Position numbers and translations under genes: made by a program
Source: Sphaerodactylus townsendi
Taxonomy: Eukaryota
Length of the DNA stretch: 64,000 nucleotides
Assembly: GCF_021028975.2 (NCBI RefSeq)
Contig: NC_059433.1
Location: 2,480,001 to 2,544,000, forward strand
Direction of reading: 5' to 3'
In this document: positions 2,579 through 55,827 of the stretch, piece by piece
Numbering within the stretch: the first letter of the stretch is position 1
Layout of the letters: each line of letters starts with the position of its first letter
The notes under the pieces: model-generated
What the model was told of the DNA's origin: nothing
The model's database searches: none
Seen by the model: the letters and a program-made list of their open reading frames with translations, nothing else

Positions 2579-2862
2579 TGTCAGGACTGCAACTCCCAAC
2601 ATGCACTGCTTCCTGCCTTTTCCCAAACAGTGCAGGAAAACAAACTGAGAAGCTACATTCCACCAGAGCTTCAGAGCCAATGGGAGACCAGGAGCTGGTA
2701 GGAGGGGAAGAGTTGATTGGTTGCTGTCTGTCTTTGTAAATAGTTTAAATACTGGAACTGATGACAAGAATCCTCAGTTCCATTACTGTGTAGTTAGGGC
2801 AACATAAATCAATAAAGTTCCTCTTCTAAAGTTAGCTTTGTCTGAGTGTGTTCAGCCTTACA
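2579..2862 (+). mobile_element. 5' LTR of Gypsy element A
   Basis: TGTCA...TTACA ends, CCAAT/ATTGG boxes, TTTAAAT at 2744, AATAAA at 2811; followed by a self-complementary PBS and gag/pol remnants. Confidence 0.85.
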
Positions 2863-3850
2863 TTGTGCTGGAACTCACTCTTATTGTTCCACCATGTACC
2901 CAGACCCCTATAGGCATGGCTGGGTCAGGAGAACAAACCTATGCTCACTATCCCTGACTCTCCCCAGCAGGACAAGGGACCCTGGTGAAGCGGCCTACAC
3001 TCGAATGAGCGGGTGAGACACCCCCCTGCCATTCATCCTAACCAAATCCCAAGGACTGGGGAGTGGATCGAACTGCGAGGCGGACAAGCAGCGATGCGCT
3101 TATGAGGCACTGCGACTTCAGTCAGAGGAGGTTACTCGGGAGAGGGACCGGCTACAATCTGACTTTTCAGACCTTCAGCAGCAAGTGGCATTCCTATTGG
3201 CTGAATGAGAAAGGGAGAAAACGAGAGGGGCCCTCCGAATCCACTCGCACCCACCGTCACCACTTGGACCTGTGCCTGCACTATGGAGAAGGCAGCCACC
3301 TCATCGCGCCTTGCCCTGGTAGTCACATCCCAGCAGCTGCTTCTGGACCCAAGGGTCCGCAGCACCCAGGAACCCCCACAAAAGTTTCCCAACAGTCCCG
3401 CCCCACCACAGCCAGAGCCACCCTTAACCTGGCTGCCCAAGCTGGGACTGGACTACAATTTACCGGCGGGAAATGACAACGACCTGGCTTAAGGAGCGCC
3501 AATAACCAGGTCGTCCCTGCAGGCGCCAAGGGTGAGTGCTTCTCCACCATGCCCATAGTCATAGTGGTTACACCCTCCTGGGGTCTCAGACCCAGACCCA
3601 TGCCAAGGCCCTCATTGACTTGGGTTGCTTGAGGTGCCTGATCCATCCTGATTTGCTGGCGGCATTAGGACTTGGATTGTTAAACTGAAACGGCCACTCT
3701 GGTTCGAGCAGATGGATGGTACTGTACTGGGGGGGGGCCTTTCCACCCACAAGTCAGAGCCTGTGGTCGTATCATTTGCAGGGCACAGTGAGCAACAGTA
3801 GTTTGTAGTGGCCAAGTTGGGCAGCTACCCCCTATTGCTACGCATGCCCT
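2863..3850 (+). pseudogene. Gypsy element A: PBS, internally deleted gag, gag/pol frameshift site, aspartic protease remnant
   Basis: gag ends PAGNDNDLA* at 3492; protease motif AKALIDLGC(=DSG)...FEQMDG at about 3600-3850; multiple stops and frameshifts. Confidence 0.8.
3468..3526 (+). promoter_or_regulatory. -1 ribosomal frameshift cassette (degenerate slippery site plus H-type pseudoknot)
   Basis: G GGA AAT in gag phase at 3468-3474; stem1 acgacctgg 3479-3487 / ccaggtcgt 3506-3514; stem2 gcgcc 3496-3500 / ggcgc 3522-3526. Confidence 0.75.
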
Positions 3851-3867
3851 AGTGCTACGCATGCCCT

Positions 3868-5810
3868 GAGACAACACTTCTTGAACCAAGGCTATATGAA
3901 ATTGCTCATCCTTAGAATAGATCAGCACATCATCCAAATAAACATCATCCAAATAAACACCCACTCCTTTAAATAATAAATCATCCAGGATGCCATTTAT
4001 TAAACTTTGAAAAACGGATGGGGCTCCTTGTAATCCAAAGGGCATGACAAGATATTCAAACTGCCCATAGCGAGTATTAAAAGCAGTCAAATGTTCATGA
4101 CCCTCAGCCATTCGCACCCTATAGTAAGCCTCACGTAAATCCAACTTTGTGAAGATGCGACCAGAGCCGAGGTTTGCAAGTAAGTCCTTGATTAAGGGGA
4201 TGGGGTATTTGTTTGAGGCAGAAAGTGCGTTCAAACCTCTGAAATCGGTGCAGAGGCGTAAAGAGCCATCTTTCTTCTTTACAAACAGAACTGGAGCTGC
4301 AAAACCACTGCGCGCTTTCCGGTTAAATCCACGCGCCAAATTCTTATCCAAAAAAGCTCTAACTCAGCATCCTCAGCCGGGCTCATGGGATAAAGCCGTC
4401 CCTTTGGTAACTTAGCTCCTGGAACCAGTTCAATTTCAGTCAGTGGCCCAGTGGGGTGGCAAGGTATTACACTCAGTTTCCTCAAACACTCACCACAAGC
4501 CCCTATATGGCACAGGAATAGCAGGGTCGATGGGAGGCGGGGACAATGCGCAGGCAAGTCCGTTGGATGGGCGCAGCAAATGGCTCGGGAGGTAAGGGCT
4601 CATATGATCCCCGCAATGTGGATCAGTAAAAGTCAAAACATGCTGGGACCACTTTACAGATGGAACATGTTCCATAAGCCAAGAGAGTCCTAGAATCACA
4701 GGATATTGAGAAATAGGGGCAATAATGAAGCTGTGACGTTCCCAATGACCCTCACAGCTAACCAGAATCCTGGGCATGCGAGAAGTGATGGGACCACCTC
4801 CCATGGGACTACTGTCCATTTGGTCAAACCGAATAGTCTCCTTCAGACCAACCAGCTGCAGCGGTAGTGCCTCAACCAACCGAGGATGAATTAAACAATG
4901 AGAACAGCTGGTATCCACCAGGGCCTGAACCAGCAACTTCGGGCAGCCGGGACCATTAGTAAGCACAAGGGGTAGAATTCCGAAGCCTGGAGCATCCGCC
5001 AAGCCTCAGCTTCTGAGGAATCAGCTACTTCGGACGGGCGGACGGCCACTGATACATTCCCAGCCAGAGGTGCAGTCACCCAACTTGCGCTGCCAAAATC
5101 CAAGGGCTGAGAGTCTCAATAATCCAGGCCCCAAAGGCGGTGCACAGTAACAGAGCCATCTAACGGGGCAGTCAGGAACAGATTGGTGGAGTCCGAAAGG
5201 CCAGTTGGAGTAGGGTCTCCTCCAGAAGCGGTTGCTTCCCCTGATAACATCCGAGGCCCCTCGGCTTGGTCAGAGGCAAAATCCAAAGTCCCAGTTAATT
5301 CTGCAGGAATGGGGCGCCCAGCCTCTGCTCTTGCAGACACTTCTCCTTGCGGGGTTTCAAGCGAAGTCATGCTGATAGATTTAGTTCATTAAAAACGATG
5401 TAAAAATAAAGGGTGAAATTCCAGCAATGCACAGCAGCATGGAATTCGACCTATGGGGAGTACTGGCTTAATGTCAGAATCCCAAAAACACACGCAAACT
5501 CTTGTTGAAGAACAGTAGTTTTTAATGGTGTTGGATCTTCCCTGGTCAAAGCCAGTACTGAGAATTGCCCGCGCAAAACCCTACAGTTAAAACAACTTGC
5601 ACTTCCCAGGCTGGGAAAGCGCGCCTAAAAGTTACCATAAGAATGATAACATGAGATGGTCAGGCAGTGACCTTGGGCACCACCTGGTACTGCATAACAT
5701 CCTACAGAAACAGTGGAAAGACAGTTAGAAATGCATTTAACCCATTCCTCCACCCCCTGTGCATTTAGAAAGTAGCAAAAGCAAAACCCATAATAACAGG
5801 TCTCCTGACA
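3868..5810 (-). mobile_element. Gypsy element B (5' LTR 5472-5810, short gag remnant, protease, partial RT), nested in element A and 3'-truncated
   Basis: ORF 4490-5002 ALVDTSCSHC (protease); ORF 3680-4351 [37 protein letters not shown] with TGTCA/TGACA ends. Confidence 0.9.
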
Positions 5811-54299: not shown

Positions 54300-54325
54300 C
54301 CAGCCCCACCCAGCCAGCACACACC

Positions 54326-54847
54326 AGCTGGTTCTACACAGGTAACTGGTTTATGGAACCCATGTCAGTTGCCTGTGCCGCTGTTTGCACAGCAGCTGCA
54401 GAGACCAGCCAGGATTGCTGGGATCTCGGCAGCAGGAGAACGGAGTGTTTTTATGCAAACTGCACAGCTGAGAATCCCCCACCAGAGAATCCTCCACCCC
54501 AAAATCCACCCCTTTGAGAATCTCCCCACCTACCTGCATGGTATGGTGGCTGTTTATTAGAGAATCTACTGTAATGGTAGCTGCCTGGGAGTCCACCATA
54601 CTGGTGGATGAAAAGGGGTGGGAATTGAATGCTTCCTGTTTGCTGCAGTTCACAGAGACAAACAGGAAGTATTTGAAACCTGGGTTAAAGGAAAAAAGTT
54701 GCTAATTTAGTGGCTTTCATTTAACCCGGGTTCTGGCAAATAGTACACATTAGAAGTGTTTGGGGGGTGAGCTCTGTGGGAATGCCGACCTCCCAGTGTT
54801 TTTGAAAAGGGCCTCAACCCATTCTGTTGGCCTGTGCAGAATCAGCC
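54326..54847. mobile_element. Harbinger-like MITE
   Basis: TIRs gctggttctacacagg / cctgtgcagaatcagc. Confidence 0.55.
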
Positions 54848-54966
54848 GCCAATCCCTTTTTTAAAAAATGCACAATCTACTGTAGTTGCTCAAAAGATGA
54901 TGAAATGTTATACAAAAAACAAATAACTACTACTGGACATAGCAGTAATTTATAAGTGGATGTAAT

Positions 54967-55827
54967 TGTCAGGACCATGCCTGTCAGTATCTTGATGTCT
55001 TGCTGTGTGTGATTTGCAATTGTTTTCTTGTTTCCCTCTTCCCTTCCCAGCAATCTCCTGTTAGCAATCTCCTGGTGCCAGCCCATCTTCAAAGAGGTGT
55101 GAAAGGTTCCCAGGTTCTTTGTAGTAGAAACTGAAATGGACATTTGGTGTGGGGCGAAACAGGGGGGGGGATTAAAAGATATAAGTCCTGGATCTGAGCA
55201 CTCTAGCTCAGATCCTGCTTTACATTGTTACTCTTCACATCACCTGGAATAAACTGCTTTTGGACTTTCCTACGGTCTCTGTTATTTCCACGTTCAAGAG
55301 TCTGACATTAAGCAGGATCTCCCAGTTTGGCTCGCACTCAAATCCATGGCTGGCAAGGATGGAGCAACAGGCGGGTCCCCGGCTGGCGAACCTGATGAGG
55401 GAACGGGGTGAGTTCCAGACAAGGACAAGATGCCTCGCAACCCAGACTTAGGAGATGAGGAGAAGGATGCTCCCGTCCCCGACTGACACGATCCTCACTT
55501 GGGTGCTGCACGAAGCGCCAGCAGTGAGGAGAGCATGGGAGCATGGGATCACCCTATTCTTGGGACCCCTCTTGGGACCCAAGGTGGCTGGGCAGCGTGA
55601 GTCCACTTGGCTCATGCAACCCATGGACCAGGACATTTACTCGGAGTGGGACCCAGCGGCACAAAGCGAGTGGTCATGGGTCCAGGCAGGGGCGTGGGCC
55701 CCTGAGCGAGGCGTGGTGTCCTGGTGGTGGGAGCAAGATGAGATGCGGCAGGAGATACACTTCCTACGGTGCAACATGGAACTCCTCTTAGCCTGCCCCG
55801 AGGCAGCAGAGTGGGATCGCCAGGATC
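54967..55827 (+). mobile_element. Gypsy element D: 5' LTR (54967-55307), PBS, gag N-terminus; truncated
   Basis: TGTCAG...CTGACA, TATAA at 55180, AATAAA at 55248, self-complementary PBS at 55310-55320. Confidence 0.85.

What the first reader, a model, noticed from the sequence alone, without database searches (positions are those of the whole stretch)
2753..55215. Inverted repeat straddling the TSS in most LTRs: a possible mask for the 3' copy of the self-primer
Seen in sequence: between TATA and +1 there is a second anti-R sequence. A: tggaactga 2753-2761 / tcagttcca 2774-2782. C: gttctgaa 9572-9579 / ttcagaac 9583-9590. D: ggatctgagc 55190-55199 / gctcagatcc 55206-55215. 3' LTR at 36767-37123: ggaatc 36852-36857 / gattcc 36862-36867. 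B has only the palindrome cagtactg, and the 52468 LTR shows nothing clear. Inference: the upstream arm lies in U3, so it is transcribed only at the RNA 3' end. There it would fold over the 3' R copy and keep it from competing for the PBS, leaving the 5'-terminal copy as sole primer. It could alternatively tune strand transfer or polyadenylation. I do not know of a description of this three-way U3/R/PBS covariation, but I could not search the literature.
Basis: partly seen in the sequence, partly recalled or inferred. Interest (0 to 1): 0.7.

Follow-up and report, generated by a model that had tools for sequence, protein, structure and literature searches.

The report
Hairpin over retrotransposon self-primer copy
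Some families of a lizard jumping gene that starts copying itself with the first 11 letters of its own RNA carry a short mirror sequence that is predicted to fold over the second copy of those letters and likely stops it from priming by mistake, but more than half of the related families lack it.

Summary
All four inverted repeats are at the stated places, in LTRs of Tf1/sushi-type self-priming Gypsy elements. Only three of six window LTRs fold beyond shuffles (A, C, D; z -3.4 to -4.6). Across 178 LTR/PBS junctions found without using U3 (30 families), 12 of 30 families beat U3 shuffles, so 'most LTRs' is wrong; the family-wide signal vanishes without the window's own lineages (p about 0.67). 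Within lineages A, C and G the U3 arm, R and PBS change together at five sites; D shows lagging arms. Folding predicts that the arm locks R+1..+11 (2.5 to 11.2 kcal/mol) without touching AAUAAA or R+12..30. New here: 7 of 178 junctions carry the PBS followed by 8-42 nt of reverse-complemented U3, likely fossils of priming on a U3-bearing R copy; they lean to weak-arm copies (0 of 35 against 7 of 57; p 0.04-0.19 by cut-off). Best reading: a dispensable, probably repeatedly gained plus-strand mask (0.5); template-switch by-product is the main rival. This scan noted the same idea before in two fungal genomes (unchecked AI notes). No description found in 8 paper searches; key primary papers were not held.

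The parts
2744..2751 (+). Element A, TATA-like box
   Evidence: sequence
2753..2761 (+). Element A, U3 arm (13 bp stem in undecayed family copies)
2774..2782 (+). Element A, partner arm across inferred +1 (2776)
2776..2786 (+). Element A, inferred 11-nt self-primer (start of R)
   Evidence: pairs with PBS 9 WC + 1 GU
2811..2816 (+). Element A, poly(A) signal; LTR ends at 2862
2865..2875 (+). Element A, PBS after CA|TT
5459..5469 (-). Element B, PBS (11 of 11 pairs with R)
5472..5810 (-). Element B, 5' LTR; inferred +1 at 5559; no significant U3/R stem (0 of 25 copies with WC score >=6)
3683..5005 (-). Protease and RT fragments downstream of LTR B; RT nearest Ty3 RT in PDB
9473..9483 (-). Element C, PBS
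9486..9718 (-). Element C, 5' LTR; inferred +1 at 9576
9583..9590 (-). Element C, U3 arm
9572..9579 (-). Element C, partner arm across +1
36767..37123 (-). Element E, 3' LTR (purine tract and integrase fragment upstream); inferred +1 at 36858; family PBS seen in L135, L295, L325
36862..36868 (-). Element E, short U3 arm, overlapping a recurrent GCGGGA motif in most copies
36851..36857 (-). Element E, partner arm in R
52468..52892 (+). Element F, 3' LTR; inferred +1 at 52789; no stem; decayed family PBS seen in L211
54967..55307 (+). Element D, 5' LTR; inferred +1 at 55210; poly(A) signal 55248-55253
55190..55199 (+). Element D, U3 arm
55206..55215 (+). Element D, partner arm across +1
55310..55320 (+). 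Element D, PBS (11 of 11 pairs with R)

Best explanation
In several lineages of these self-priming-type Gypsy elements a U3 sequence is complementary to the start of R and changes together with it, and it likely acts as a dispensable plus-strand hairpin that would hide any U3-bearing copy of the 11-nt primer sequence from the PBS. Shown: the repeat, its recurrence within lineages A, C, D and parts of G and H, joint changes of arm, R and PBS, and genomic copies in which the PBS runs on into reverse-complemented U3. Predicted: the hairpin locks R+1..+11 and leaves R+12 onward and AAUAAA as they were. Inferred: the normal 5' end has no U3 and pairs freely with the PBS; the 3' R of the RNA, an upstream-started RNA, or the plus strong-stop DNA has U3 next to R, and without the arm its R can pair with the PBS and misprime, giving dead-end products; the arm lowers that loss slightly, so it is gained several times and often decays.
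For: Window A, C, D beat shuffles. Stem of WC score >=6 in 27 of 28 A, 30 of 33 C, 34 of 35 D copies. Own R fits own U3 better than swapped R in 21 of 30 families, permutation p 0.0002. Three-way double changes: A +6 and +7 (L108, L115), C +4 (L304, L309, L328), G +6 and +7; in 100 listed G loci R+7 C goes with arm G in 24 of 25 and R+7 G with arm C in 68 of 72 (counted by eye; few independent events). The U3-U3 closing pair in A is G-C in 26 and A-T in 27 of 59 copies. In C the arm differs at 13 of 168 cells, the loop at 37 of 96. Opening R+1..+11 costs 11.2 with and 2.5 kcal/mol without the arm; AAUAAA 2.13 and 2.15; R+12..30 7.1 and 6.4 (medians, 13 strong families). A, D and C are not one clade on the Gag tree and have different axes, -8.5, -7.5, -5. 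Shared non-WC stem variants are G-U 8, A-C 1; singletons 7 and 10. 7 of 178 junctions have PBS + 8-42 nt of anti-U3, 9 at a looser score; in the junction-pattern set 0 of 35 strong-arm and 7 of 57 weak-arm copies.
Against: 18 of 30 families do not beat U3 shuffles. Without the window-seeded lineages A, C, D, E, B no signal is left (19 families, p 0.66 and 0.69); with one family per A/C/D lineage p 0.044 (32 nt) and 0.14 (90 nt). Young elements with LTR pairs 98-99.7% alike (L074, L100, L117, L120) have weak or no arm. D has a fixed T-T mismatch at +7 (19 of 23) and L280/L292 unmatched +7/+8; a large G subfamily has a decayed arm (11 of 35 copies, -0.8 to -7.9 kcal/mol). In A the loop was more conserved than the arm in one sample (1 of 150 against 19 of 325), less in another (20 of 354 against 22 of 708, p 0.065). 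Pairs with double change in A do not exceed column shuffles (3; 120 of 500). The G-U lean is weak: two of the 8 are one event, R-side changes are already filtered by the PBS, and A cells give 18 G-U to 9 A-C, driven by one variant. The fossil contrast depends on the cut-off (p 0.04, 0.09, 0.19; rank test 0.10), one fossil is in strong family D (L017), 16 of the strong copies are one family, and weak family 11 shows none.
Confidence: 0.5

Rival explanations
1. Neutral by-product: reverse transcriptase folds back at a quasi-palindrome and re-copies the arm from R (or R from the arm), so the arm arises and tracks R without a function.
For: The anti-U3 fossils show that inverted copying happens at this very junction; rearranged arms occur (L427, L449); several axes, patchy spread, lagging and decayed arms; R is held by the PBS, so re-copying would also make the arm look conserved against the loop.
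Against: Outer positions were compensated while an inner G-U stayed (A: +6/+7 with +3; G: +6 with +2), which fits point changes better than re-copying; a fixed mismatch persists in D, a family with 1426 search candidates, so repair is rare; shared variants lean to G-U.
Confidence: 0.22
2. The hairpin works at the RNA 3' end but on strand transfer, RT pausing, RNA stability or 3' processing, not on PBS competition.
For: Same plus-strand, 3'-only geometry; all covariation data fit equally. In D, E and family 5 the arm is predicted to open AAUAAA a little or a lot (0.2/0.4, 0.5/4.0, 1.9/4.9).
Against: Median AAUAAA and R+12..30 access is unchanged across 13 strong families.
Confidence: 0.15
3. 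Promoter-level element: the 'arm' is a factor site or a symmetric core promoter in DNA; pairing with R is incidental. Most plausible for E, H and family 13.
For: A GCGGGA-type motif lies at -32..-1 in 28 of 35 H copies, 10 of 21 family 11 and 5 of 7 B junction copies whether or not R matches, and upstream of TATA in 5 of 6 family 13 copies, where it matches R over 9-10 bp. The E2F label for it is recalled; one search is only a search listing.
Against: A, C, D and G arms differ in sequence and follow R, which a sequence-specific site would not do; the motif is at -32..-1 in 0 of 30 A, 1 of 24 D, 0 of 13 C junction copies.
Confidence: 0.1

Closest known systems
Tf1/Tf2 of Schizosaccharomyces pombe and the Tf1/sushi chromoviruses (5' 'pretzel'; PMC10085805, PMC7175516, passages)
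   Same: First 11 nt of the RNA complementary to the PBS just after the 5' LTR; Gag-PR-RT-RH-IN-chromodomain order in a sister copy.
   Different: The passages read describe only the three 5' duplexes; no U3 arm over the other R copy and no PBS+anti-U3 products. RNase H cleavage at 11/12 is untested here.
Vertebrate sushi / Amn V-clade elements (named in PMC6317226, passages; Butler et al. 2001 not seen)
   Same: Vertebrate host, chromodomain integrase, self-priming type junction.
   Different: No reference sequence could be compared, so clade membership by tree is untested; whether Butler et al. mention the U3 repeat is unknown.
Retroviral R-region hairpins such as HIV-1 TAR and poly(A) hairpins (recalled)
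   Same: Short stems at the R border with end-specific roles.
   Different: Those lie inside R and form at both ends; this stem needs U3, so it cannot form at a correctly started 5' end.
Alternative start sites of Tf2 (PMC5341516, passages)
   Same: Start-site choice decides whether a usable self-primer exists; starts inside U3 are reported.
   Different: Control there is by nucleosomes, not by an RNA arm.

Membership tests
Tf1/sushi self-priming chromovirus | Ty3/Gypsy pol order PR-RT-RH-IN | tested here: met
   Natural ORF of sister copy L061: Pfam order PR, RT, RNase H, integrase; window fragments match it at 30-68%; B RT nearest Ty3
Tf1/sushi self-priming chromovirus | Chromodomain after integrase | tested here: met
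   PF00385 E 1.4e-10 in L061; not seen in the broken window copies themselves
Tf1/sushi self-priming chromovirus | PBS complementary to an 11-nt LTR segment at the inferred 5' end | tested here: met
   A, B, C, D: 10-11 of 11 pairs; mean pairing probability >=0.84 in 27 of 30 families; R and PBS change together
Tf1/sushi self-priming chromovirus | Three-duplex pretzel around the PBS | tested here: inconclusive
   Folds of A-D give the central duplex and inner R/U5 stems but no clear R-to-post-PBS duplex
Tf1/sushi self-priming chromovirus | Transcription starts at the primer's first base; RNase H cuts after base 11 | not testable with these tools
   Needs cap mapping and biochemistry
Tf1/sushi self-priming chromovirus | RT tree places it in the vertebrate V-clade | not tested
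   No reference sequences held; one search has only this genome's copies
   12 of 30 families; no signal in the 19 families outside the window's lineages
   The control search gave 35 matches against 19 for the reversed pattern, so no usable control set

The most novel reading that the evidence does not exclude
Self-priming retroelements face a built-in error, priming on the wrong, U3-bearing copy of R, which leaves a recognisable PBS+anti-U3 scar in genomes; lineages from fungi to lizards have repeatedly evolved a U3 anti-primer arm that suppresses it, so a primer-identity check can be read from genome sequence alone.
Probability: 0.3. Interest if true: 0.75.

Novelty: new variant of a known kind. 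Interest (0 to 1): 0.52.

Why it matters
Self-priming raises a question that tRNA priming does not: the primer sequence stands twice in the RNA and again in the plus strong-stop DNA. A U3 arm would be a simple answer, and the PBS+anti-U3 copies make the error countable in any assembled genome, so the idea can be tested by comparing families with and without the arm. The effect is lineage-limited and no function is shown, which caps the interest.

Tried and rejected
A loose junction detector gave mostly false calls; a strict one was used, and 16 of 194 unique calls were dropped as palindromic MITE or chance calls before counting (a first filter dropped 22, six of them wrongly, and was replaced). 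26 fetched pattern loci gave no new junction call (decayed, duplicate or chance). tRNA-primed control: pattern at chance level. RNA evidence: no RNA holder listed. 60 more A regions were fetched to raise power for the fossil test, but nearly all were lone LTRs and added no junction. The PR-RT tree was unfinished and poorly resolved; the G-lineage DNA tree could not be rooted. Poly(A) switch: not supported by folding medians. A role on the minus strand (shielding anti-R DNA from the attached RNA primer) predicts A-C tolerance on the plus strand; the data lean the other way. B's palindrome cannot form a hairpin and B has no significant stem. Tf1/Tf2 LTR alignments in the PMC10085805 supplement are pictures and could not be read, so whether Tf1 has such an arm is open. 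PMC109269, PMC1563812, PMC231564 and PMC230564 are not held.
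Full report
What the window holds. The window lies in a 1.81 Gb genome; the label 'gecko' comes only from an unchecked AI note. Six LTRs are concerned: A (+, ends 2862), B (-, 5472-5810), C (-, 9486-9718), D (+, 54967-55307), and the 3' LTRs E (-, 36767-37123) and F (+, 52468-52892). A-D are followed by TT and an 11-mer complementary to an LTR segment 87-98 nt upstream, which lies 25-32 nt after a TATA-like box. 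That is the layout of Tf1/sushi self-priming as described in passages of PMC7175516 and PMC10085805. A natural ORF of a sister family has Gag, PR, RT, RNase H, integrase and a chromodomain. +1 is inferred, not mapped.

Observation. Against 200 dinucleotide shuffles A, C and D fold far better than chance (z -4.4, -3.4, -4.6); B, E and F do not (-0.9, -1.1, +1.0). Family copies agree: a U3/R stem of WC score >=6 in 27 of 28 A, 30 of 33 C, 34 of 35 D, 23 of 32 E and 0 of 25 B copies.

Generality. I collected junctions with a detector that uses no U3 letters: 200 calls in 336 sequences, 194 unique, 178 kept, 30 families at 80% R-U5 identity. The cost of opening R+1..+11 is higher with the family's own R than with swapped R in 21 of 30 (permutation p 0.0002) and higher than with shuffled U3 in 21 of 30, but only 12 of 30 families are individually significant. 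The TSS window has z<=-2 in 9 of 30 families, four other LTR windows in 9 of 120. The signal rests on few lineages: it is gone in the 19 families outside A, C, D, E, B (p 0.66, 0.69) and marginal with one family per lineage (p 0.044, 0.14). Median-copy sampling hides mixed families: 5 of 9 G and 16 of 36 H copies have a stem. Young elements without a good arm exist. The arm is thus real, lineage-limited and dispensable. On the Gag tree (40 rows, 20 of 30 families) C is parted from A and D by a long branch with 100/99 support, and A and D each have weak-arm neighbours; with the different axes this suggests several gains, though I ran no formal test of origins.

Covariation. Arm, R and PBS change together at A +6 and +7, C +4, G +6 and +7. 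Among 100 listed G loci, found with a pattern that left the arm free, R+7 C goes with arm G in 24 of 25 and R+7 G with arm C in 68 of 72 (by eye); these are a few events, in two separate sub-branches of an unrooted tree. The inner U3-U3 pair of A is G-C in 26 and A-T in 27 of 59 copies. On 18 distinct A sequences 95.7% of cells pair; cells with double change exceed all 500 shuffles, the number of such pairs (3) does not (120 of 500). Against this: D keeps a T-T mismatch at +7, L280/L292 are unmatched at +7/+8, and a large G subfamily has a decayed arm. Arm-versus-loop conservation is strong in C, weak in D, and contradictory between two A samples; copies are not independent.

Which strand. Shared non-WC variants are G-U 8 to A-C 1 (p 0.04), singletons 7 to 10. 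Two of the 8 are one event, and R-side changes are already filtered by the PBS, which has the arm's sequence; arm-side events number about four. This only leans to a plus-strand structure, and cannot tell RNA from plus-strand DNA.

What it would do. In predicted 3' ends the arm raises the opening cost of R+1..+11 from 2.5 to 11.2 kcal/mol and leaves AAUAAA and R+12..30 unchanged (medians of 13 strong families). In a strand holding U3, R, U5 and PBS together the arm wins over the PBS in the A, D and one C representative (0.56-0.98), but not in L108, L280, L308 or most weak families. That the stems end near +9 may follow simply from the TATA box limiting the arm.

Fossils of the error. 7 of 178 junctions have the PBS followed by 8-42 nt of reverse-complemented U3 (9 at a looser score). 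Five of the seven have no coding match downstream, one joins RT, one continues to gag. Two routes fit (inference): the primer carried U3 (3' R copy, or an upstream-started RNA; starts inside U3 are reported for Tf2 in passages of PMC5341516) and was copied past +1, or the PBS end of the plus strong-stop DNA snapped back onto its own R. That the Tf1 primer stays attached I know only from a title in a reference list. A plus-strand U3 arm would block both routes. In the 92 junction-pattern loci the events fall 0 of 35 against 7 of 57 at a cut-off of 5 kcal/mol (p 0.04), 0 of 32 against 7 of 60 at the cut-off of 6 used earlier (p 0.09), p 0.19 at 8, rank test p 0.10; one event elsewhere is in strong family D, and family age confounds the contrast. 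The same fossils show that inverted copying happens here, which also feeds the by-product rival.

What is known. Eight searches listed no paper on such an arm. I read passages of PMC3601003, PMC6317226, PMC4600332, PMC10085805 (and part 1 of its supplement, where the LTR alignments are pictures), PMC2864245, PMC5341516 and PMC7175516; none of those passages mentions it. The primary Levin papers were not held and Butler et al. 2001 was not seen, so absence from print is not established. Two earlier notes of this scan report the same idea in fungal genomes; they are unchecked and I did not test them.

Verdict. A real, lineage-limited addition to a known mechanism. Mask on the plus strand 0.5, template-switch by-product 0.22, other 3'-end role 0.15, promoter site 0.10. 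New variant of a known kind; interest 0.52.

Noticed in passing
L312, L291, L320, L290, L017, L310, L251 (weaker: L238, L060): LTR|TT|PBS followed at once by 8-42 nt of reverse-complemented U3, then sequence without a coding match (5 of 7), RT sequence (L017) or leader and gag (L310). The longest run past the TATA box. Likely mispriming or snap-back products.
   Followed up: partly
window 5560-5585 (-), 36862-36875 (-); families 8, 11, 13, 24: Recurrent GCGGGA-type motif between TATA and +1 or just upstream of TATA; resembles an E2F site (label recalled). In family 13 it matches R over 9-10 bp from -53.
   Followed up: partly
L005, L138, L155, L160, L163, L183: LTR copies followed by a partial or whole PBS and then unrelated sequence; would fit integration of cDNA ends that still carry the primer copy.
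   Followed up: no
families 10-13 (L074, L117, L120, L238, L296): The TATA position reads CGTAAAAG-like instead of TATA, in families that include young elements.
   Followed up: no
window 2862-9718: Three or more Gypsy elements nested or adjacent in opposite orientations (A +, B -, a + RT fragment 5895-6982, C -); B's protease starts about 470 nt after its LTR, so most of gag is missing.
   Followed up: partly
window 19672-21460, 52286-53501, 62974-64000: Several copies of a palindromic MITE-like repeat.
   Followed up: no
L007, L010, L012, L015, L025: D subfamily in which R+5 and the PBS partner changed together while the U3 arm kept its letter, giving a G-U pair.
   Followed up: yes
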